Position numbers and translations under genes: made by a program. From sequence record PZ534515.1: a stretch of 64,000 bases of DNA; one strand, written 5' to 3'. Below are positions 10,578 to 51,148 of the stretch, piece by piece (position 1 is the stretch's first letter; each line of letters opens with the position of its first letter). Origin of the DNA: a phage. The notes beneath the pieces were generated by a model that worked only from the letters and a program-made list of their open reading frames with translations, was not told the DNA's origin and ran no database searches.

Positions 10578-11123
10578 TCAAAAGTGTCCTTTTACTTGTG
10601 GAACATAAATTTCAAAAGTTGCTTTACCATCCTCTGATGGTTTTGACTGTACCTTTGTAAATACACGGTTATCATACAACTTCTCAAAGAAGTTTTCAAA
10701 AGGTAAATGCACAGTGACCTCTTCAGTAACTTTATGGAAAACTGTATGGAACACTACACCAGCATACGGTAAAGCATTGACAAGGACACCTGCACCACCA
10801 ATTACAAAGACATCTTCATCAATAGAGCTATCAAGATACTTCAAAAATGCTCCAAATGACTCTTTACTGGCTTTAGCATACATTACATCATCTTTGCCAA
10901 AGTCTATGCCTAAGTATGGTACAGAATTTGTTAAGATGAGGTTTGCACGTTCTGGTAAAGGTTTACTCCCCAGAGTCTTGAAAGTTTCGTTACCCATCAC
11001 TACTAAGTTGTTTTTAGTGAGTCTCTTAAACTCTTGCATGTCCTGTTTATGTCGAGGCCACGGCATACCAGTTGGAGTACCAAACTCACCATTTTCACCA
11101 CTTGCAAAGATTAGTTTAATCAT
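10578..11123 (-). CDS. frd: dihydrofolate reductase
   Basis: DHFR N-terminal pattern (MIKLIFA...GMPW...VVMGNETF...RPLPER.NLILT); stop lies 1 nt before thyA start. Confidence 0.85.
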   Translation of the reverse strand: MIKLIFASGENGEFGTPTGMPWPRHKQDMQEFKRLTKNNLVVMGNETFKTLGSKPLPERANLILTNSVPYLGIDFGKDDVMYAKASKESFGAFLKYLDSSIDEDVFVIGGAGVLVNALPYAGVVFHTVFHKVTEEVTVHLPFENFFEKLYDNRVFTKVQSKPSEDGKATFEIYVPQVKGHF

Positions 11124-11380
11124 TTTGTAAATCCTTTCTTAATGAACCAGTTGATAACATTCCTCACAGCTTTATTGCTATGGTAGATTAAGTGTGGTGT
11201 AGGTTGGTATGAACCATAAGCCCAGAATGATAGATGTTCACCACAACCAACACATGTAGTGCTCTCTTCAGCTATATGACCATTAACAATCATATGAACT
11301 TCACCTTGCAAGTCTGTACACCCACAATGTGGACAACGTATAGGCGTTCCATCAGACTCATAGCAGTGTTCAATTTTCAT
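11120..11380 (-). CDS. small zinc-ribbon protein
   Basis: CPHCGC ... CVGCGEH cysteine pairs; ATGA overlap with frd. Confidence 0.5.
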   Translation of the reverse strand: MKIEHCYESDGTPIRCPHCGCTDLQGEVHMIVNGHIAEESTTCVGCGEHLSFWAYGSYQPTPHLIYHSNKAVRNVINWFIKKGFTK

Positions 11381-38641: not shown

Positions 38642-39523
38642 ATGAAAACTATTATTGAAGCCGTTGTCACCGCACAAGAGAAATTCTTCCACACAGAAAA
38701 ATTTAATATCATCCAATTCCCATCTGGAGAAATTGGTGGAAACTTCTCTGAAGACTTTGTTAAGTTTACTGAGCGTAATGCTGGTAAGATTGACAATGTT
38801 ATATTGACTGTACAGGGATATGATAAAGATACACTGTTTGCATTAGCTTTGGCTAAGGATGCCGTTGACAGTCTTGTTCCATACAAATCAGCGATGAAAA
38901 CCGTTGTTTTCGGGTTCTTACCGAATGCTCGATATGACCGCCATATATTCAAAGGTGATTCAGCAGCACTGAAAGCCTTTGCCAACCTCGTTAATGCAAT
39001 GGGTTTTGATGCAGTATGTGCTCTTGACCCTCACAGTAATGTTGCAGAAAACTTATTTAAGTGTTTTCAGAGCATGAAGCAAAAAGATGTAGCAGCACAC
39101 TTTGCAAGTGACCCACGCATTGATTTCTTGGTAGCCCCAGATGCAGGTGCAGCTAAGAAGACTGAAGAGACTGCTAAAGAGGTGGATAAACCATATATCA
39201 CAATGTCTAAAGTACGCAACCTTAAGACTGGTGAAATTACTGGTATGCGAATCCTTGATGCTGTTGATTTGACCGATAAAACTGTCATGATTCTTGATGA
39301 TATTTGTGATGGAGGCCGAACCTTCATAGAAGCAGCTAAACATCTTCGTGAAGCAGGTGCAAAACGTGTGGAACTCTATGTAACTCATGGTATTTTCTCT
39401 AAAGGTGTTGAAAACTTACTTGACAATGGTATTGACCATATCTACACTACAAACTCTTTAGGGGAAGCTAAAGACCGTGGATTAACACATTATGCCCAAG
39501 TTACTGTAGTAACCATTGATTGA
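38642..39523 (+). CDS. prs: ribose-phosphate pyrophosphokinase-like protein (candidate ADP-ribose pyrophosphokinase, NARP1 Adps)
   Basis: PRPP-binding loop VMILDDICDGGRT; ATG at 38642 after agagagagag (track uses TTG at 38621); directly upstream of the NAMPT-like gene. Confidence 0.7.
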   Translation: MKTIIEAVVTAQEKFFHTEKFNIIQFPSGEIGGNFSEDFVKFTERNAGKIDNVILTVQGYDKDTLFALALAKDAVDSLVPYKSAMKTVVFGFLPNARYDRHIFKGDSAALKAFANLVNAMGFDAVCALDPHSNVAENLFKCFQSMKQKDVAAHFASDPRIDFLVAPDAGAAKKTEETAKEVDKPYITMSKVRNLKTGEITGMRILDAVDLTDKTVMILDDICDGGRTFIEAAKHLREAGAKRVELYVTHGIFSKGVENLLDNGIDHIYTTNSLGEAKDRGLTHYAQVTVVTID

Positions 39524-39532
39524 AACTTTATA

Positions 39533-39554
39533 GGGGCTTCAAAGCCCCATTTTG
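39533..39554 (+). terminator. hairpin/attenuator between the prs-like and nadV-like genes
   Basis: ggggctt-ca-aagcccc then attttg; same hairpin recurs at 44655. Confidence 0.45.
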
Positions 39555-39568
39555 AGAGAGATTAAAAG

Positions 39569-41350
39569 ATGACTAAATCACTTTATGCAGTACCAGCAGG
39601 TTTAAATGCAGATGCTTACAAATCTGGTCATGTTTACCAGTACCCTAGTGCAACAGATTACTTGATGTTTAACCTGACACCACGTAGTGATAAATGGTTT
39701 AACAGCCCTTTAGCAATTGATGGTGTAGTAGCTTTTGGTATTCAACGTTTTGTTAAAGATTACTTGATAGACCACTGGAATACCACCTTCTTTGAACGTG
39801 ACAAAAAAGAAGCAATTGATGAAATCTTAGAAGTCATGAACGGTGTTCTGGGTAAAGATGCTATTGGTCGAGAACATTGGGAAGCACTTCACGACTTAGG
39901 TTATCTACCAGTTGAAGTATACGCTGTAGAAGAAGGCACAGTTGTCCCTATGCGTGTTCCAATGATTGTATTCCAGAACACTGTTTCAGGTTTCCATTGG
40001 GTAGCAGGATATCTGGAAGATGCTTTCTCTGCTGAGATTTGGAAGGCTTGTACCATTGCGACTATTGCATTGCACTACAAACGTATCTGTAAGAAGTGGT
40101 CTGACCTTACTTGTGACAATGACTTGCATTTACCTTATCAGTGCCATGACTTTGCTATGCGTGGTATGTCCGGCTTTACCGATGACGCATTTAACGCTGT
40201 AGGTCACTTAACCAGCTTTAAAGGGACTGATAGCTTCCCTGCTGTATATACAGCTAAACGCATCTATGGACAGTCCTACCCAATCTCTGAGATTGGTGGT
40301 TCTGTACCAGCCACTGAACACTCTGTCATGTGTGCAAACATTGCTTGGGAAGGTGGTAATGAATTGATTGAAGAGGAAAGACGCTTTAGAGGTGAGTTGC
40401 AAACCTTCCGTCGTTTCTTAACAGAAACTTACCCAACTGGTATTGTAAGTATTGTTTCAGATACTTATAATTTCTGGAGAACTGTATCAGTGATACTACC
40501 AGAACTCCGTAAAGAGATTATGGAACGTGATGGCAAACTGGTAATTCGTCCTGACTCTGGCGACCCTGTACATATTGTCACAGGTTATAAAGCAATCCAC
40601 TTAGAGTGTGCTAAAAAGGCTTATTACGAACACCTAAGCAAGCTGGAAGCCAGCGACACAATGTTGAATGCTGTTCTGAACATGAAGCTTGAAAACATCA
40701 ACTACGGCATTGCTGGGTGGCTACTGTCAGAAGGTTACGAAATGGTTGTTGACAGAGAAGACTTTGAAGTTGCCGATACAGTGATGTTGAAAAATGCTTA
40801 TATGGTTGGTTCTGCAAACGTTGTAACACGTCCTGTAGCAGAGATTGATGGAGCTATCAAGACACTGTATAACATCTTTGGGGGAACTATCAACTCTAAA
40901 GGTTTTAAAGTACTGGATGAGCACATCGGACTTATTTATGGTGACTCTATCACGTTGGAACGTGCAAACGAAATCTTGAAGCGTTTGTATGAAATGGGTT
41001 TTGCAAGCTCTAACGTGGTGTTTGGTGTAGGTTCTTACACTTACCAGTACATGACTCGTGACACTTTTGCATTTGCTGTCAAAGCAACTCTTGCAAGCAT
41101 TGGTGGTAAAGAGATTATGCTTGCAAAAGACCCTAAAACAGATAGTGGTGTTAAGAAGTCTGCTTTTGGTGGTGTAGCACCTATGTGGGATGGTGATAAG
41201 CTGAAAGCTGTAGATGGCTATGGATTCCAGAGCTTTGCAGATGTGCTTGAACATCCAGCTTGTGCTTTACGTTTAGTCTTTAGTGACTCTGAGCAGTTCG
41301 GTTACACATCTCTTGGTGATATTCGAAATAATATTGACAAGCAACTTTAA
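39569..41350 (+). CDS. nadV: nicotinamide phosphoribosyltransferase-like protein (candidate NARP1 Namat)
   Basis: 593 aa; NAMPT-like N-terminus (DAYKSGH); paired with the prs-like gene. Confidence 0.75.
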   Translation: MTKSLYAVPAGLNADAYKSGHVYQYPSATDYLMFNLTPRSDKWFNSPLAIDGVVAFGIQRFVKDYLIDHWNTTFFERDKKEAIDEILEVMNGVLGKDAIGREHWEALHDLGYLPVEVYAVEEGTVVPMRVPMIVFQNTVSGFHWVAGYLEDAFSAEIWKACTIATIALHYKRICKKWSDLTCDNDLHLPYQCHDFAMRGMSGFTDDAFNAVGHLTSFKGTDSFPAVYTAKRIYGQSYPISEIGGSVPATEHSVMCANIAWEGGNELIEEERRFRGELQTFRRFLTETYPTGIVSIVSDTYNFWRTVSVILPELRKEIMERDGKLVIRPDSGDPVHIVTGYKAIHLECAKKAYYEHLSKLEASDTMLNAVLNMKLENINYGIAGWLLSEGYEMVVDREDFEVADTVMLKNAYMVGSANVVTRPVAEIDGAIKTLYNIFGGTINSKGFKVLDEHIGLIYGDSITLERANEILKRLYEMGFASSNVVFGVGSYTYQYMTRDTFAFAVKATLASIGGKEIMLAKDPKTDSGVKKSAFGGVAPMWDGDKLKAVDGYGFQSFADVLEHPACALRLVFSDSEQFGYTSLGDIRNNIDKQL

Positions 41351-41748: not shown

Positions 41749-42089
41749 AAATTATGAAAATCAAAGAAATGAACATCAATATTGTCTTAGAAGAACGCTG
41801 GGAGAACATCAAGAAGCCTGAAAAGGGTCATAAGTTCCTCAACAAAATCTTAGTAGCAGCTAAAGAAGAACTGACTGGCAAGGTTGCAGCAGCAATTACA
41901 ATAAAGGTCTGTGTAAAAGGTCTTCCAGACAATCACCAATTTGCACTTGACGAGTTTAAAGAAAGCTTCTACAATCCAAACAAACAGATGCTTGAAAGTA
42001 ACTTTGCAGTATCTACAAGTATCGTCCATGATAGAAGCTTCATCCTTTACAAGAATATGAGAGGTGAGTCATGCAAGCATATTGGATAG
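41742..42089 (+). CDS. hypothetical protein
   Basis: 115 aa ORF. Confidence 0.45.
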   Translation: MVKIMKIKEMNINIVLEERWENIKKPEKGHKFLNKILVAAKEELTGKVAAAITIKVCVKGLPDNHQFALDEFKESFYNPNKQMLESNFAVSTSIVHDRSFILYKNMRGESCKHIG

Positions 42090-42247
42090 AAATTTTACTG
42101 TCACTTGGTAGTGTAGCAGTGTTCGTTTACCTTCTTTGCAAGTACTATGCAGAGCACAAAAAATGTGACTTCTGTAATGGGGAAGGTTATACAAGAACAG
42201 GCTGTTGCCCTATATGTGGTGGTTCTGGTAAAATGTTTAATAAGTAA
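42071..42247 (+). CDS. small membrane protein with C-terminal zinc ribbon (58 aa, below track cutoff)
   Basis: My own translation: hydrophobic N-terminus then CDFCNGEG...CPICGGSG. Confidence 0.3.
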   Translation: MQAYWIEILLSLGSVAVFVYLLCKYYAEHKKCDFCNGEGYTRTGCCPICGGSGKMFNK

Positions 42248-47628: not shown

Positions 47629-47640
47629 GGTTAAGATACA

Positions 47641-47661
47641 GGCTCCTTCGGGAGCCTTTTT
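47641..47661 (+). terminator. intrinsic terminator
   Basis: ggctcc-ttcg-ggagcc then ttttt. Confidence 0.6.
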
Positions 47662-47680: not shown

Positions 47681-48028
47681 ATGACATTTAAAGAGTTCTG
47701 TCAAGCTACTTTTATAATTGTTTTCTTAGTTGGGGCAGGTGTCTGGGGAGGATACTCTTACAGAGACTATCAAGTTGCTGAAGCTGAGCTAAACAATGAG
47801 AAACTAATAAGTGTTGCTAAAGATGCTTATCAGGAAGGTTTAGCCACACTCAGCACCAATTACAAAAATGATTTGAAAGATGTGCTTGCTAAGAATAAGC
47901 ATACAAAAGAGGTACTAACATATGAAAAAACTAAGCCAGAGTTTTATAATGTTTGTGTTACTGATAATTATGTCAGGGTGTTCAACGAACAAAGTGAACA
48001 GTACATTCAAAAACTCCCAAGTAAGTGA
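47681..48028 (+). CDS. i-spanin (Rz-like)
   Basis: N-terminal TM segment FIIVFLVGAGVWGG then periplasmic domain; overlaps the lipoprotein ORF in another frame. Confidence 0.5.
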   Translation: MTFKEFCQATFIIVFLVGAGVWGGYSYRDYQVAEAELNNEKLISVAKDAYQEGLATLSTNYKNDLKDVLAKNKHTKEVLTYEKTKPEFYNVCVTDNYVRVFNEQSEQYIQKLPSK

Positions 48029-48191
48029 GAGTGACAAGTACACTCAAGAAGAGTCAAGATTCACTGTCAAAGGTAATACTGGTAGTGATGTGGCAGCAGC
48101 CCTTGAGTTTTATCGTGATGGTTTTTACCAGTGCACAATCAAAGCTAATAACCTTATTGATATGATTTTATTAGGAAACAAACAGCAATGA
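47922..48191 (+). CDS. o-spanin (Rz1-like lipoprotein)
   Basis: Signal peptide with lipobox MSGC; start lies inside the i-spanin gene in a different frame. Confidence 0.55.
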   Translation: MKKLSQSFIMFVLLIIMSGCSTNKVNSTFKNSQVSESDKYTQEESRFTVKGNTGSDVAAALEFYRDGFYQCTIKANNLIDMILLGNKQQ

Positions 48192-48457
48192 CAGAGAATG
48201 AAGATACGTTCTATGTAGAAGGGTACTTACTGCTACCACGACCAAAAGAAACTTATATGCGGGTTGATTTCTCACCAACCATTATGGATAATGTGATGTG
48301 TCATATCTTTATGCAAGGTGTCACAGCACAACTTAAGCATGTTGGTAAAGAGTGCAAAATAAAGGTTGACACTCATCCAGAAATCAAAGAGAATCACTAC
48401 ACATGGTTCTTACCAGACTCTAAAGAAATCTTAGCAGTTCTTAAAACGAGGAAGTAA
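48188..48457 (+). CDS. hypothetical protein
   Basis: 89 aa ORF, ATGA overlap. Confidence 0.45.
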   Translation: MTENEDTFYVEGYLLLPRPKETYMRVDFSPTIMDNVMCHIFMQGVTAQLKHVGKECKIKVDTHPEIKENHYTWFLPDSKEILAVLKTRK

Positions 48458-48459
48458 CT

Positions 48460-48786
48460 ATGCAGATTAATGGAAGAGACTTTGTAGCCGTTTACTACGA
48501 GAAAGATAAAGAAGTTGGAGTAGCACAAGTATCTTATGGTAATGGTAAGTGGCTATATGGAACAATCGCAGTAGTCGGAACAAGAAGTGATACAAAAACT
48601 TTTAAAGATTGTGTTGACCTTCTTGAAGAATCCATCCACAATCATTGGTGTCTGATATGGATGACTGACAACGAAGTGATAGAACGCTTCAAAAAGATTG
48701 GTATCAACATTGATAGCATTGAGCATGTTGATTTATACGAGCTAACTGAGAAGGTAAACTATGAGAGTAATACTAGCCAGAGATAA
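48460..48786 (+). CDS. hypothetical protein
   Basis: 108 aa ORF. Confidence 0.45.
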   Translation: MQINGRDFVAVYYEKDKEVGVAQVSYGNGKWLYGTIAVVGTRSDTKTFKDCVDLLEESIHNHWCLIWMTDNEVIERFKKIGINIDSIEHVDLYELTEKVNYESNTSQR

Positions 48787-48988
48787 AAAGACACGGAAAC
48801 TTATCAGGTCAGCAGTGTTCATTGGACGAAATGAGGTCATACCATTTACAGCAAATGATGTGATAGCTTACCGGAAGAACTTAGTATTCACTGACTGTTT
48901 ACGTGGCTTCATCTCTGAACCATTGGAAGACTTTAAAAGTCGCTGTGGTAAAGGTATCATCATTCAAGAGGCAATTATTCATGGCTGA
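48761..48988 (+). CDS. hypothetical protein
   Basis: 75 aa ORF. Confidence 0.35.
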   Translation: MRVILARDKKTRKLIRSAVFIGRNEVIPFTANDVIAYRKNLVFTDCLRGFISEPLEDFKSRCGKGIIIQEAIIHG

Positions 48989-49181
48989 CTTCTGCAAAGA
49001 CTGTGCTATCGAAATGTTCGGACGTGATACAGGTGACTTAAAAGGTCTTATCACTGAAGATGACTTTAAAGCTGGCTATGCAATGCCAGTAATCTGTGAA
49101 GGTTGTGGATGTATCTGGGTAGACCACGAAGGACAACGTGTAAAACCTTCAGAAGATAAAGAATCTTGGGAGAGATGCTAA
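48981..49181 (+). CDS. small zinc-ribbon protein co-transcribed with macro-domain gene
   Basis: CKDC ... CEGCGC; ATG 48981 with caagagg RBS; stop overlaps macro gene start. Confidence 0.4.
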   Translation: MADFCKDCAIEMFGRDTGDLKGLITEDDFKAGYAMPVICEGCGCIWVDHEGQRVKPSEDKESWERC

Positions 49182-49967
49182 ATGGGTATTGTAAAAATCA
49201 TCAATGGGGATATCTTCTCCGCATTTGATAAAGGTAAGTTTGATATCATTGGTCACGGTTGCAACTGTATGAACTTAATGGGTGCGGGTATCGCTGACAA
49301 GATTTCTAAACTTTACCCAAAAGCATATGAGACCGATACAGAAGTTTATCTGTATACAGGTGGTATAGGCCACAAACCCTGTGAAAATTTACTAGGCAAC
49401 TTCTCTGTAGCACGTTTAAAACAAGGCCGTATAGCTAACCTTTACACTCAGCTTCACACTGGTAAAGATGCCAGATACAGTGCTTTAGAGTCATCTCTGA
49501 AACAGCTTAACAGATACTGTGAAGTTAATCAGTTGAAGAAAGTTGGTTTACCTATGATTGGTGCAGGTATCGGTGGACTTGACCCTCAAGCCGTCACCGT
49601 TATCATTAATCAGGTGATGAAGAGTGTAGATGTCTATCTATATGTCTACGAAGGAGAGATGTACCACAAGTTACGCTCAGGTTGGAAGAACTACTGTGAA
49701 CCAGAATACTTTGCAGGTGTAGTAGTGTTCACAGATAACACAGTTACCCTCTTCAGACGAAGAAAAGGTAAGGTACATCAAAGTAACCCTCCGGTTGAAA
49801 AGATGTCTCTAAGTAACGCTCTAGTTACCCACCTGTCGAAGAGCAATCACAGAATTGCAGTAACATTTGGCAGTGATGCAGATACATATATCTATGCAAG
49901 AAATGATGAGGATGTTGAGGAAATTTTCTCTTCACCGGAAGTTACCTTCTTAGACGCAAAGAACTAA
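49182..49967 (+). CDS. macro-domain protein (ADP-ribose binding/hydrolase)
   Basis: N-terminal IINGDIF...GHGCNCMNLMGAGIA matches the macro-domain Gly-rich ADP-ribose-binding region. Confidence 0.65.
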   Translation: MGIVKIINGDIFSAFDKGKFDIIGHGCNCMNLMGAGIADKISKLYPKAYETDTEVYLYTGGIGHKPCENLLGNFSVARLKQGRIANLYTQLHTGKDARYSALESSLKQLNRYCEVNQLKKVGLPMIGAGIGGLDPQAVTVIINQVMKSVDVYLYVYEGEMYHKLRSGWKNYCEPEYFAGVVVFTDNTVTLFRRRKGKVHQSNPPVEKMSLSNALVTHLSKSNHRIAVTFGSDADTYIYARNDEDVEEIFSSPEVTFLDAKN

Positions 49968-50040
49968 GAAACTCTGTAGAATATTCACAATAGACTAAGC
50001 CTTTCTTATCTGGTAAATTTTCAGGTAAGGAGGGCTTTTT

Positions 50041-50231
50041 CATTTTAGAATTGTGCAGGTAGAGTTCTGTAGAGAAATCTGTAGAGAGAATTTTGAACTC
50101 CAAAGAGAAAATTTATTTTCAAACTGTGCAGGTAATCTCCAAAGAGCTTTTTCATTTTCAAAACGTGCAGAACCCACTCAGGTCGGGCAAGAAAAATCAT
50201 TTTAGAATTGTGCAGGTAGGTGGGTGCAGGT
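50041..50231 (+). repeat. four direct copies of an approximately 21-bp motif (cattttagaattgtgcaggta)
   Basis: Copies at 50041..50061, 50114..50134, 50152..50171 (degenerate) and 50198..50218, plus nested ctgtagaga x2. Confidence 0.6.
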
Positions 50232-50394
50232 GGGAATGTCGCCATTTCTCACAAGGCTACCACATCTGGAAATAAAAGTCAACAGAAAAATTTGTAGCGG
50301 ATTGAAAAATAATTATTGATTGTAGTTCTGTTTTGTGGTAGTCGCGCGCACCCGTTTCATTACAATTCTTGCAAAAATATTTTTAAAATTCCTA

Positions 50395-50423
50395 TTGACT
50401 CTTTGAGTATGGTTATCTAATAT
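50395..50423 (+). promoter_or_regulatory. strong sigma70-like promoter heading the small-gene array
   Basis: TTGACT, 17-nt spacer, TAATAT; followed by hairpin gggcaagcaagccc and leader ctaaactggagaatccaaaATG. Confidence 0.55.
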
Positions 50424-50472
50424 TTGCATCAGACGGGCAAGCAAGCCCACTTCCTAAACTGGAGAATCCAAA

Positions 50473-50679
50473 ATGATGTACAGTCGCGAATTGATGGTTA
50501 CAACCAACGTTAACACAAAGGCAAAACGTTTTTATATGCAAGTGTGCGGCGCATGGCGTAGAATATCAGAAGCTGATTATTGCAACTATGTAGAAACGGC
50601 AATTAACTCTAATTGCTACCTAACAAAGAATACAAAGCGACATATAAAACAGACAGCGGTTTACTATTACGATATATAA
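50473..50679 (+). CDS. small early-type protein 1
   Basis: 68 aa ORF behind promoter and leader. Confidence 0.45.
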   Translation: MMYSRELMVTTNVNTKAKRFYMQVCGAWRRISEADYCNYVETAINSNCYLTKNTKRHIKQTAVYYYDI

Positions 50680-50767
50680 AAAGTACTTTACAAGGGGCTT
50701 AAAAGTTGATATCTTAAGCCCCAGATAAAGAGCTTTACTAACTTACCTTAAACTAGGAGATTCTAAA

Positions 50768-51148
50768 ATGGCTTATCGTGCACCGAAATTCATCAATAAA
50801 GACAACTTCCGCAACGCACTGGAGAAGTCACTTGATGAAAAATTTAACGGTAAATTGATTATTGTTCACGCATTCAATTTTAAGTATGATATTAATGGGA
50901 ATAAAATCAACCATTACACGGCAACCATGATAGATGGTACACTATCAAGTGAAAAAGCCGTACTGAATGCACTTGCTGGACGCGGTAAAAACCTGATAAA
51001 ATGTGATAAGCGACGTTATCAGGGTGGCGCATATGGTTATGATGATGCTGTTTACCATCTTGAAAACATGGGCTATTCAGTGGAAAAAGCTGGAGTGTCT
51101 CAAATAATCGGCAGTGACGGCTATGTGACAATTTTCAAAATTAACTAA
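50768..51148 (+). CDS. small early-type protein 2
   Basis: 126 aa ORF behind type A cassette. Confidence 0.5.
   Translation: MAYRAPKFINKDNFRNALEKSLDEKFNGKLIIVHAFNFKYDINGNKINHYTATMIDGTLSSEKAVLNALAGRGKNLIKCDKRRYQGGAYGYDDAVYHLENMGYSVEKAGVSQIIGSDGYVTIFKIN

What the first reader, a model, noticed from the sequence alone, without database searches (positions are those of the whole stretch)
48981..49967. Macro-domain gene translationally coupled to a small zinc-ribbon gene
Seen in sequence: a 66-aa Cys-rich protein (CKDC...CEGCGC) whose stop overlaps the start of a 261-aa protein with a macro-domain N-terminus (GHGCNCMNLMGAGIA). Established knowledge: macro domains bind or hydrolyse ADP-ribose adducts, and phage macro proteins can reverse ADP-ribosylation-based host defences. 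Inference: with the NARP1-like pair 8 kb upstream, the phage may both remove ADP-ribose modifications and recycle the released ADP-ribose into NAD+.
Basis: partly seen in the sequence, partly recalled or inferred. Interest (0 to 1): 0.55.

Follow-up and report, generated by a model that had tools for sequence, protein, structure and literature searches.

The report
Phage anti-DarT macrodomain beside unrelated zinc-finger gene
This Felix-O1-like phage carries a relative of the phage T4 enzyme that strips ADP-ribose off DNA to defeat the bacterial DarTG2 defence; the small zinc-binding gene in front of it looks like an unrelated neighbour, so the finding is mostly a new member of a recently described family.

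Summary
Both genes exist as described. The small gene's TAA stop abuts the macro gene's ATG; it does not overlap it. The window is a Felixounavirus, about 96% identical to Bas63.

The 261-aa protein has a confident macro fold over residues 1-157, of the TARG1/DarG/Poa1p class. It also has a 105-residue C-terminal domain with no detectable relative.

It belongs to phrog_335 together with T4 Tk.4 (34% identity, same HGCNC / NLYTQ / PxIGAGIGG motifs). A 2025 preprint showed Tk.4 ("AdfM") is required for T4 to resist DarTG2. The catalytic Lys of DarG, TARG1 and PhiKZ AdfM is an invariant Gln here, as in SCO6735.

The most likely function is therefore removal of DarT2-type ADP-ribose from phage DNA. 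This rests on homology and has not been shown for this protein.

The zinc-ribbon gene (phrog_2210) is a widespread small phage gene (T5.062 is 66% identical). It lies next to a macro gene only in Ounavirinae and is exchanged independently of it. I found no evidence that the two work as a pair.

In other phages this macro family sits inside or beside NARP1 or NARP2 operons.

Verdict: new member of a known kind, with moderate interest.

The parts
48981..49181 (+). 66-aa acidic (pI 4.4) Cys4 protein of family phrog_2210, a putative zinc ribbon. It is a neighbour of the macro gene, probably not its partner.
   Evidence: ORF and sequence. phrog_2210 at E 1e-40. No Pfam match. Invariant M1 A2 C5 C8 C39 E40 C42 G51. 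1056 clusters (at 50% identity) in the exhaustive search. T5.062 is 66% identical. pI.
49168..49174 (+). SD-like GGGAGAG inside the 3' end of the small gene, 8-14 nt upstream of the macro ATG
   Evidence: Read directly from the sequence.
49182..49967 (+). 261-aa two-domain macro protein. It is the orthologue of Bas63 gp95, annotated 'putative phosphatase'.
49182..49652 (+). Macro domain (residues 1-157) of the TARG1/DarG/Poa1p class and the Gln-type AdfM (T4 Tk.4) family, phrog_335
   Evidence: Pfam Macro. DarG profiles at 1.7e-13 and 7.6e-14. Foldseek hits to TARG1 and DarG. Profile versus PDB. 34% identity and E 1e-23 to a T4-type Tk.4 (PP01). Same PHROG as T4 Tk.4.
49263..49265 (+). Codon of Asn28 (in HGCNC). 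It aligns with PhiKZ AdfM N23, which that paper equates with DarG N22.
   Evidence: Invariant in 32 homologues. Alignment A6. Residue numbering from PMC13309987.
49449..49451 (+). Codon of Gln90 (in NLYTQ). It occupies the position of the catalytic Lys of TARG1 (K84), DarG (K80) and PhiKZ AdfM (K78). T4 Tk.4 and SCO6735 (Q85) also have Gln here.
   Evidence: SCO6735 Q85 from PMC9411070.
49653..49964 (+). C-terminal domain (residues 158-261), six predicted beta-strands and one helix, with no recognisable relative outside orthologues of this protein
49997..50037 (+). Terminator-like hairpin (17 pairs, followed by TTTCATTTT) that ends the transcription unit 30 nt after the macro stop codon
47640..47657 (+). 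Terminator-like hairpin upstream of the 7-gene unit (spanins, three small ORFs, the Zn gene and the macro gene)
38642..41350 (+). Context: the NARP1 operon, Adps 38642-39523 and Namat 39569-41350. Its end lies 7.8 kb upstream of the macro gene.
   Evidence: Function shown for the Bas63 orthologues in bioRxiv 10.1101/2024.02.11.579819.

Best explanation
The 261-aa protein is an orphan, antitoxin-like ADP-ribosyl hydrolase of the AdfM (T4 Tk.4) family.

Proposed mechanism:
1. Its macro domain binds the ADP-ribose that a host DarT2-type toxin attaches to thymidines in single-stranded phage DNA.
2. It hydrolyses the ribose-base bond, releasing free ADP-ribose and restoring replicable DNA. The phage thereby escapes DarTG2 abortive defence.
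3. Catalysis does not use the Lys of DarG or TARG1. An invariant Gln sits at that position, as in Streptomyces SCO6735, where the Gln is essential and a water-based mechanism was proposed.
4. The C-terminal domain is specific to Ounavirinae-like phages and of unknown role. I infer that it helps bind DNA or DarT.

The upstream 66-aa Cys4 protein is an independent small phage gene that happens to be co-transcribed. It is not a required partner.

What is shown here: the fold, family membership, motif conservation and gene context. What is inferred from homology: the substrate and the anti-DarT2 role.
For: Fold and class:
- Macro fold and TARG1/DarG/Poa1p class.
- The best library profiles are DarG.

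Family membership:
- Same PHROG (phrog_335) and the same four motifs as T4 Tk.4.
- 34% identity and E 1e-23 over the whole macro domain against the PP01 Tk.4 orthologue.
- T4 tk.4 was the single HIDEN-SEQ hit on DarTG2, and a clean knockout sensitises T4 (bioRxiv 10.1101/2025.11.20.689424).
- PhiKZ gp104 AdfM removes DarT2 ADP-ribose from DNA (PMC13309987).

Active site:
- Asn28 and Gln90 are invariant in 32 homologues.
- A macro enzyme with Gln at this position, SCO6735, cleaves thymidine-linked ADPr-DNA (PMC9411070).

Host and context:
- The hosts carry such systems: EPEC E. coli has a thymidine-specific DarTG (PMC7003065).
- No adjacent ADP-ribosyltransferase is annotated within +/-12 kb in Bas63, which fits an orphan antitoxin.
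Against: - There is no experiment on this protein or on any Felixounavirus. Identity to the tested T4 protein is only 34%.
- The T4 evidence is genetic and comes from a preprint. No substrate was demonstrated for the Gln-type family.
- The HxCNC motif is shared with yeast Poa1p, an ADP-ribose-1''-phosphatase. Sequence alone therefore does not separate DNA-adduct hydrolysis from action on small molecules.
- Recurrent placement of this family inside NAD+ reconstitution operons hints at a metabolite-level role.
- The PhageMaP study of Bas63 across 12 defence strains does not mention this gene, but DarTG was not among the systems named.
- The extra C-terminal domain is unexplained.
Confidence: 0.55

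Rival explanations
1. The macro domain mainly processes soluble ADP-ribose derivatives and works with NAD+ reconstitution. Candidate substrates are ADPR-1''-phosphate or the cyclic phosphate that forms from ADPR-PP, O-acyl-ADPR from sirtuins, and 1''-2'/1''-3' gcADPR signals from TIR systems. It would turn them into free ADPR, which Adps and Namat rebuild into NAD+. It would also quench signals or toxic metabolites.
For: Gln-type macro genes lie inside or next to NARP operons in other phages:
- L086: Adps / macro / Namat with overlapping ORFs.
- L119, L156 and a remnant in L117, all upstream of Adps. That is 3 of 16 non-Ounavirinae NARP1 loci.
- L066/L067 and L076: NadM-SLOG-Nampt-(NADAR)-Macro islands.

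Other points:
- The HxCNC motif is shared with the ADPR-1''-phosphatase Poa1p.
- The NARP1 paper reports an ADPR-cyclic-phosphate ion alongside ADPR-PP (bioRxiv 10.1101/2024.02.11.579819).
- Iyer et al. argue that phage macro domains mostly target small ADPr derivatives (PMC9503650).
Against: - T4 carries the same family, and there the family is needed specifically against DarTG2. I am not aware of a NARP1 operon in T4 (own knowledge, not checked here).
- In this window the macro gene is 7.8 kb from NARP1, with at least one terminator-like hairpin between them.
- Only 3 of 39 distinct macro loci have NAD genes within 4 kb.
- Two of the three Poa1p residues for which mutant structures were deposited (S30, F152) are not conserved here.
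- The NARP papers I read never mention a macro gene.
Confidence: 0.25
2. The macro domain reverses ADP-ribosylation of protein or RNA rather than DNA. The modification could come from host defence ARTs (for example mRNA-modifying CmdT-like toxins) or from an ART encoded by the phage itself.
For: - TARG1, the top structural and sequence match, is a protein and nucleic-acid ADP-ribosyl hydrolase.
- Macro domains are versatile across substrates (PMC9503650).
- RNA-ADPr reversing macro enzymes exist (PMC11833690, abstract only).
Against: - TARG1's Lys84/Asp125 dyad is absent here: Gln90 and Gly align with them.
- No ART is annotated in the 27 kb around the gene in Bas63.
- The only functional data for the family point to DarTG2.
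Confidence: 0.12
3. The Zn-ribbon protein and the macro protein form a two-component unit. The acidic Cys4 protein would act as a regulatory, DNA-mimicking or DarT-binding subunit, made in fixed ratio through translational coupling.
For: - There is a 0-1 nt spacer between the two genes in all 30 Ounavirinae-type loci examined.
- The small protein is acidic, pI 4.4.
- A divergent phage (L081) has an unrelated CPKC...CNEC protein overlapping the start of its two-domain macro gene.
- phrog_2210 domains are occasionally fused to enzymes, a MazG-like pyrophosphatase and a cupin.
Against: - The two genes reassort independently. In L029/L030 the small gene is 98-100% identical but the macro gene only about 52%. 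L017 shows the reverse. The breakpoints fall at the gene junction.
- L031/L032 have a 260-aa macro gene directly after the o-spanin gene, with no small gene.
- 26 of 29 phrog_2210 lineages have no macro gene within 3 kb, and their neighbours are unrelated to each other.
- Small ORFs with two CxxC motifs are not enriched upstream of macro genes: L077 among the roughly 39 diverse viral-contig lineages, plus L081 among the contigs fetched separately, against a 4.5% background.
- T5 has a 66%-identical copy yet is strongly restricted by DarTG2 (PMC11825919).
Confidence: 0.08

Closest known systems
T4 Tk.4 = AdfM (anti-DarT factor macrodomain), bioRxiv 10.1101/2025.11.20.689424
   Same: - Same PHROG, phrog_335.
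- The PP01 Tk.4 orthologue is 34% identical over the whole macro domain.
- Identical HGCNC, MG(A/S)G(I/V)A, NLYTQ and P(R/M)IGAGIG motifs, including Gln at the catalytic-Lys position.
- An orphan phage gene in an early or accessory region.
   Different: - Tk.4 is a single domain of 155 aa. This protein carries an extra 105-residue C-terminal domain of unknown fold.
- The genomic neighbours differ (vs and tk in T4).
- The anti-DarTG2 function is shown for T4 only.
PhiKZ gp104 AdfM (Cell Rep 2026, PMC13309987) and the bacterial DarG2 macrodomain (PDB 5M31, 5M3E, 5M3I)
   Same: - Macro fold of the same class.
- The conserved Asn is present (N28 aligns with PhiKZ N23).
- DarG profiles are the best library hits.
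   Different: - Only 22-25% identity (E 2e-5 to gp104).
- The catalytic Lys (K78 in gp104, K80 in DarG) is replaced by Gln90.
- There is no DarG-type DarT-binding C-terminal domain: the NCBIfam DarG score is 50.6 against a cut-off of 250, and only the macro part matches.
- There is no phage-nucleus context.
Streptomyces coelicolor SCO6735 (PDB 5E3B; PMC9411070)
   Same: - A member of the ALC1-like class with Gln in place of the catalytic Lys, yet it cleaves thymidine-linked ADPr-DNA and protects from DarT.
- The family profile matches 5E3B at E 3.5e-15.
   Different: - It is a bacterial chromosomal gene.
- It has no C-terminal extension.
- Pairwise similarity is too low for 5E3B to appear in the single-sequence search.
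Human TARG1/OARD1 and yeast Poa1p
   Same: - Top structural matches: TARG1 target-normalised TM-score 0.80-0.84, Poa1p 0.74.
- The HxCNC motif is shared with Poa1p. This is the source of the GenBank label 'phosphatase'.
   Different: - The TARG1 Lys84/Asp125 dyad is absent.
- Poa1p S30 and F152 are not conserved.
- Both are eukaryotic housekeeping enzymes.
phrog_2210 / T5.062 (the small protein)
   Same: - 66% identity to T5.062.
- Same invariant MAD(F/Y)C...C...CEGCG signature.
   Different: - No function is known for any member.
- In T5 the gene lies among tRNA genes next to an HNH endonuclease, with no macro gene nearby.

Membership tests
Macro domain superfamily (Pfam PF01661) | Profile score above the curated threshold, and the alpha/beta macro fold | tested here: met
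   32.6 bits against a gathering threshold of 22, residues 25-141. AF2 pLDDT 85.8. Foldseek E 1e-9, probability 1.0, to TARG1 and DarG.
ALC1-like / TARG1-DarG-Poa1p class of macrodomains | Closest sequence and structure relatives fall in this class rather than in the MacroD, PARG or viral nsP3 classes | tested here: met
   Profile versus PDB: TARG1 9e-17, Mtb DarG 4e-16, Poa1p 2e-15, SCO6735 3.5e-15. The viral nsP3 macrodomains that appear score 0.01 or weaker. Foldseek gives the same order.
AdfM, T4 Tk.4 type (phrog_335, Gln-type) | Homology to T4 Tk.4 across the whole macro domain, with the shared HGCNC / NLYTQ / PxIGAGIG motifs | tested here: met
   BLASTP 34% identity, E 1e-23, against the PP01 orthologue. 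T4 Tk.4 itself carries the motifs. Both hit phrog_335, at 1e-113 and 1e-65.
AdfM, T4 Tk.4 type (phrog_335, Gln-type) | Single-domain protein of about 150-160 aa | tested here: not met
   The protein is 261 aa with an extra C-terminal domain. That domain is shared only by the 246-264-aa homologues recovered in the protein search and the Ounavirinae-size viral contigs.
AdfM, T4 Tk.4 type (phrog_335, Gln-type) | Confers resistance to DarTG2 | not testable with these tools
   This needs phage genetics. No paper in the library reports it for Bas63 or any Felixounavirus.
DarG2 antitoxin / PhiKZ-type AdfM | Catalytic Lys (DarG K80, PhiKZ K78) and the conserved Asn (N22/N23) | tested here: not met
   The Asn is present (N28), but the Lys position holds Gln90, which is invariant in the family.
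DarG2 antitoxin | C-terminal DarT-binding domain and an adjacent darT toxin gene | tested here: not met
SCO6735-like Gln-type DNA ADP-ribosyl hydrolases | Gln at the position of the TARG1/DarG catalytic Lys, within an ALC1-like macro fold | tested here: met
   Q90 aligns with TARG1 K84. The equivalence K84 = K80 = SCO6735 Q85 is taken from PMC9411070. I did not obtain a direct alignment to 5E3B.
Poa1p-type ADP-ribose-1''-phosphatase (the GenBank 'phosphatase' label) | Conservation of the three residues for which Poa1p mutant structures were deposited (H23, S30, F152) | tested here: inconclusive
   H23 aligns with H25 (invariant). S30 aligns with L32 and F152 with G131. The PDB entry titles name those mutants. 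Enzyme activity cannot be tested here.
Zinc ribbon (the small protein) | Two CxxC knuckles conserved across the family, and a zinc-ribbon fold | tested here: inconclusive
   C5, C8, C39 and C42 are invariant in 27 diverse members. There is no Pfam zinc-ribbon match.
NARP1 (context genes) | Adps plus Namat pair orthologous to Bas63 genes 79-80 | tested here: met
   94% and 97% identity to the Bas63 locus. Annotation. Function from bioRxiv 10.1101/2024.02.11.579819.

The most novel reading that the evidence does not exclude
The Gln-type phage macrodomain is a functional third component of phage NAD+ reconstitution.

It would release free ADP-ribose from DarT2-modified DNA, or from other ADPr adducts, signals and by-products. 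That supplies the substrate that Adps and Namat rebuild into NAD+.

The counter-defence would then not become an NAD+-draining futile cycle, in which DarT2 consumes NAD+ as fast as the hydrolase clears the DNA. Instead it would close into an ATP-driven NAD+ cycle.

In Ounavirinae the lineage-specific C-terminal domain, and possibly the co-translated Cys4 protein, would adapt the enzyme to this role.
Probability: 0.15. Interest if true: 0.65.

Novelty: new member of a known kind. Interest (0 to 1): 0.4.

Why it matters
If the assignment holds:
- Felixounaviruses, which are common therapeutic and typing phages of E. coli and Salmonella, carry a ready-made counter to DarTG2.
- The AdfM family would extend to about 2,860 of 50,697 deposited phage genomes.
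- A Gln-type active site would be the common phage solution, rather than the Lys-type site of DarG.

The recurrent placement of this macro family inside NARP1 and NARP2 operons is not discussed in the NARP papers I read. It gives a concrete, testable link between two counter-defence strategies: adduct removal and NAD+ rebuilding.

The zinc-ribbon part of the finding matters less. It points to a large, uncharacterised family of small phage proteins, phrog_2210.

Tried and rejected
- Zn-ribbon enrichment upstream of macro genes. Among the roughly 39 diverse viral-contig macro lineages only L077 has a small upstream ORF with two CxxC motifs, and L081 among the contigs fetched separately. This matches a 4.5% background. 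Rejected as a general pairing.
- Direct alignment to a bacterial DarG. A tblastn search of plasmids returned only generic 'macro domain-containing' genes. I used PhiKZ gp104 and TARG1 instead.
- Experimental data on Bas63 gp94/gp95. The PhageMaP text has no mention of them, and no supplement is held. The HIDEN-SEQ preprint did not include Bas63.
- A single-sequence Adps scan found only Ounavirinae. It had to be repeated with a two-sequence alignment.
- PADLOC and NCBIfam gave nothing for the small protein or the 75-aa upstream ORF.
- A conserved partner gene for phrog_2210 across lineages was considered and rejected. Neighbours are unrelated between lineages.
Full report
**What is there**

The window is a Felixounavirus (Ounavirinae) genome segment. 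It is about 96% identical to Escherichia phages mio and JohannRWettstein/Bas63 across 48000-51000.

The two genes of the finding are real.
- The small gene runs from ATG 48981 to TAA 49179-49181 and encodes 66 aa.
- The macro gene runs from ATG 49182 to 49967 and encodes 261 aa.
- They correspond to Bas63 bas63_0094 ('hypothetical protein') and bas63_0095 ('putative phosphatase').

One detail needs correcting. The small gene's stop abuts the macro start (TAAATG) and does not overlap it. An SD-like GGGAGAG lies at 49168-49174. The true overlap is upstream, where the small gene's ATGGCTGA overlaps the stop of the 75-aa ORF 48761-48988.

The pair is the tail of a seven-gene run of overlapping or abutting ORFs:
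- i-spanin, 47681-48028
- o-spanin, 47922-48191
- three small ORFs
- the Zn gene
- the macro gene

Terminator-like hairpins at 47640-47657 and 49997-50037 bracket this run. Tight junctions are therefore the rule here and are not a mark of this particular pair.

**The macro domain**

Several lines agree on the fold and class.
- Pfam Macro scores 32.6 bits against a threshold of 22.
- The best library profiles are the DarG antitoxin models of NCBIfam (1.7e-13) and PADLOC (7.6e-14). Both match the macro part only and fall far below the equivalog cut-off.
- An AF2 model built on 32 homologues has mean pLDDT 85.8 and pTM 0.84.
- Foldseek against the PDB ranks TARG1 first (E 1e-9, target-normalised TM-score 0.80-0.84). 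T. aquaticus DarG, Poa1p and M. tuberculosis DarG follow.
- The family profile hits TARG1 (9e-17), Mtb DarG (4e-16), Poa1p (2e-15) and SCO6735/5E3B (3.5e-15).

**Active site**

In 32 homologues the invariant residues include H25, G26, N28, C29, N86, T89, Q90, P124, G127 and G129.

Alignments to TARG1 and to PhiKZ gp104 place the residues as follows.
- Q90 of NLYTQ falls on TARG1 K84 and PhiKZ K78.
- N28 falls on PhiKZ N23.

According to PMC13309987 and PMC9411070, these correspond to DarG N22 and K80. The Asn is therefore kept, but the catalytic Lys is replaced by an invariant Gln.

That is the situation described for SCO6735. Its Gln85 occupies the Lys position and is essential, and the enzyme still removes thymidine-linked ADP-ribose from DNA and protects against DarT (PMC9411070).

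The HxCNC motif is also shared with yeast Poa1p, an ADPR-1''-phosphatase. This explains the legacy 'phosphatase' label. It also means that sequence alone does not fix the substrate.

**Closest characterised relative**

A tblastn search of 50,697 phage records finds relatives in 2,860. These include the T-even gene tk.4.

T4 Tk.4 carries the same HGCNC, MGSGVA, NLYTQ and PRIGAGIG motifs.
- The PP01 orthologue is 34% identical over the whole domain, E 1e-23.
- T4 Tk.4, the window protein and the NARP-associated macro proteins all fall in phrog_335.

A November 2025 preprint reports that tk.4 was the single significant transposon-sequencing hit on a DarTG2 host. A clean knockout sensitises T4, and the authors named the gene adfM (bioRxiv 10.1101/2025.11.20.689424).

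A 2026 Cell Reports paper independently gave the same name to PhiKZ gp104, which removes DarT2 modifications from DNA (PMC13309987). That protein is of the Lys type and is only 25% identical to ours.

The window protein is thus a member of the Gln-type AdfM family. Its anti-DarT2 role is inferred from a 34%-identical homologue and is not demonstrated.

**The C-terminal domain**

Residues 158-261 form six predicted beta-strands and one helix. The pLDDT is 75-92 in the full model and 76 when the domain is modelled alone.
- It has no Pfam match.
- In BFVD it finds only its own orthologue from phage SUSP2.

The domain is present, at low identity, in the 246-264-aa homologues found in Ounavirinae-size genomes and a few metagenomic relatives. 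It is absent from the roughly 150-aa majority, including T4. Its role is unknown. It does not resemble the DarT-binding domain of DarG.

**The zinc-ribbon gene**

The small protein is acidic (pI 4.4) and belongs to phrog_2210, a family of unknown function. The word-indexed search found only 12 relatives. The exhaustive HMMER search found 1,056 clusters (at 50% identity) at E <= 1e-3 and 390 at E <= 1e-10.

The family signature is an invariant M1 A2 ... C5 ... C8 ... C39 E40 ... C42 ... G51.

Five observations argue against a functional pair with the macro gene.
1. Of 29 distinct lineages carrying the gene, only three have a macro gene within 3 kb: two Ounavirinae groups and one Ounavirinae-size (84.7-kb) contig. 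Their neighbours are otherwise unrelated. T5.062 is 66% identical and lies among tRNA genes beside an HNH endonuclease.
2. T5 is strongly restricted by DarTG2 despite carrying that copy (PMC11825919).
3. Close relatives of the window swap the two genes independently.
   - In L029 nucleotide identity is 91-98% up to the junction and 48-63% across the macro gene.
   - In L017 only the small gene is divergent (73-77% against about 95% elsewhere).
   - In L022 only the small gene is conserved.
4. L031/L032 carry a 260-aa macro gene directly after the o-spanin, with no small gene.
5. Small ORFs with two CxxC motifs are not enriched upstream of macro genes. They make up 3 of 53 small ORFs in this window.

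One counter-hint remains. A divergent phage (L081) has an unrelated CPKC...CNEC protein overlapping the start of its two-domain macro gene.

**The NARP1 link**

The ORFs at 38642-39523 and 39569-41350 are the orthologues of Bas63 genes 79 and 80. Those genes were shown to rebuild NAD+ from ADP-ribose and nicotinamide via ADPR-PP (bioRxiv 10.1101/2024.02.11.579819). They were independently found as counters to Sir2-HerA (bioRxiv 10.1101/2024.10.10.617714).

In this window they lie 7.8 kb from the macro gene. rIIA, rIIB, the polynucleotide kinase gene and the spanins lie between.

Elsewhere, however, the same macro family is physically tied to NAD+ genes.
- In Vibrio phage 184E37-2 the macro gene sits between the Adps-like and Namat-like genes, with overlapping ORFs.
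- In an alignment-based sample of 16 non-Ounavirinae NARP1 loci, three have a Gln-type macro gene, or its remnant, within 2 kb upstream of Adps: L117, L119 and L156.
- L156 reads Macro / nicotinamidase-like / Adps / Namat / NadE-like. These labels are my reading of the sequences.
- NARP2-type islands L066/L067 and L076 read NadM / SLOG / Nampt / (NADAR) / Macro ... sirtuin.

A rough chance estimate can be made. Assume about 41% of myoviruses carry a macro gene (PMC9503650), placed at random in a 100-kb genome. Then about 0.4 of 16 loci would show such proximity, and P(>=3) is about 0.01. This is my estimate and is not phylogenetically corrected.

From the macro side the link is weaker: 3 of 39 distinct loci have NAD genes within 4 kb.

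The chemistry is coherent.
- DarT2 turns NAD+ into a DNA adduct plus nicotinamide.
- The hydrolase frees ADP-ribose.
- NARP1 needs exactly ADP-ribose plus nicotinamide.

None of the three NARP papers I read mentions a macro gene. Iyer et al. did note ADPr-processing domains next to NAD+ salvage genes (PMC9503650). It is better grounded than adjacency at 8 kb would suggest, and I keep it as the 'novel case'.

**Verdict**

The macro gene is a new, two-domain member of the recently described AdfM counter-defence family, of the Gln type. It most likely removes DarT2-type ADP-ribose from phage DNA (confidence 0.55). The main rival is a role on soluble ADPr derivatives coupled to NAD+ reconstitution (0.25).

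The zinc-ribbon gene is a promiscuous small phage gene of unknown function, and its adjacency here is lineage-specific synteny.

Interest is moderate. The family assignment is unsurprising to a specialist. The unexplained C-terminal domain, the Gln-type active site shared with T4 AdfM, and the recurrent embedding in NARP operons are worth a targeted experiment.

Noticed in passing
window 50040-50215: Four copies of a 19-nt motif, TCATTTTMRAAHYGTGCAG, lie 39-73 nt apart (start to start) just downstream of the macro terminator. They occur nowhere else in the 64-kb window (0.04 expected by chance). Bas63 annotates two small minus-strand ORFs across this stretch. They could be a repeated promoter or regulatory element; this is unexplained.
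   Followed up: partly
window 48981-48988; loci L161-L238: The invariant start M-A-D of phrog_2210 is encoded as ATGGCTGA. That sequence contains a TGA in the frame of the upstream gene. In about 12 of 29 distinct lineages an unrelated upstream gene ends in this TGA, giving an 8-nt overlap and a C-terminal ...NG...DG or ...HG. The small gene behaves like a cassette that brings its own coupling junction.
   Followed up: partly
P0155, P0159: Some phrog_2210 domains are fused at their C-terminus to a MazG-like pyrophosphatase (phrog_5658) or to a cupin / 'cysteine dioxygenase'-like domain (phrog_4786). These could be true fusions or merged gene calls.
   Followed up: no
L029/L030, L017, L022 versus window 48900-50000: There is sharp mosaicism, with breakpoints at the small-gene / macro-gene junction. 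The macro gene alone is replaced in L029/L030, and the small gene alone is replaced in L017.
   Followed up: yes
L066, L067, L076, L156, L086: NAD+/ADPr gene islands occur in unrelated phages:
- NadM-like / SLOG-like / Nampt / NADAR-like / Macro ... sirtuin-like (L066, L067, L076).
- Macro / nicotinamidase-like / Adps / Namat / NadE-like (L156).
- Adps / Macro / Namat (L086).
The domain labels other than Adps, Namat and Macro are my reading of the sequences and were not checked against profiles.
   Followed up: partly
L117 5461-5685 and 6867-7370; L121, L126, L127, L132, L140, L143: L117 has only a 74-aa C-terminal remnant of the macro gene upstream of Adps, and an HNH-like ORF inserted between Adps and Namat. 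In several Ounavirinae contigs Namat starts about 470 nt further from Adps than in this window, which suggests an insertion between the two NARP1 genes.
   Followed up: no
literature: PMC13309987 and bioRxiv 10.1101/2025.11.20.689424: The name AdfM was given independently to two macro proteins, PhiKZ gp104 (Lys-type) and T4 Tk.4 (Gln-type). The Gln-type window protein, a 34%-identical relative of Tk.4, shares only 22-25% identity with gp104 and differs at the catalytic residue.
   Followed up: yes
window 11120-11380 (-) and 42071-42247 (+): Two other small ORFs in the window carry two CxxC motifs: an 86-aa ORF, and a 58-aa ORF with an N-terminal hydrophobic stretch and CDFC...CPIC.
   Followed up: no
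L081 2810-3001: In a divergent phage whose two-domain macro protein is 35% identical to ours, a 63-aa CPKC...CNEC protein overlaps the macro start. It has weak DnaJ-CXXCXGXG and Lar-like Pfam hits and no detectable similarity to phrog_2210.
   Followed up: partly
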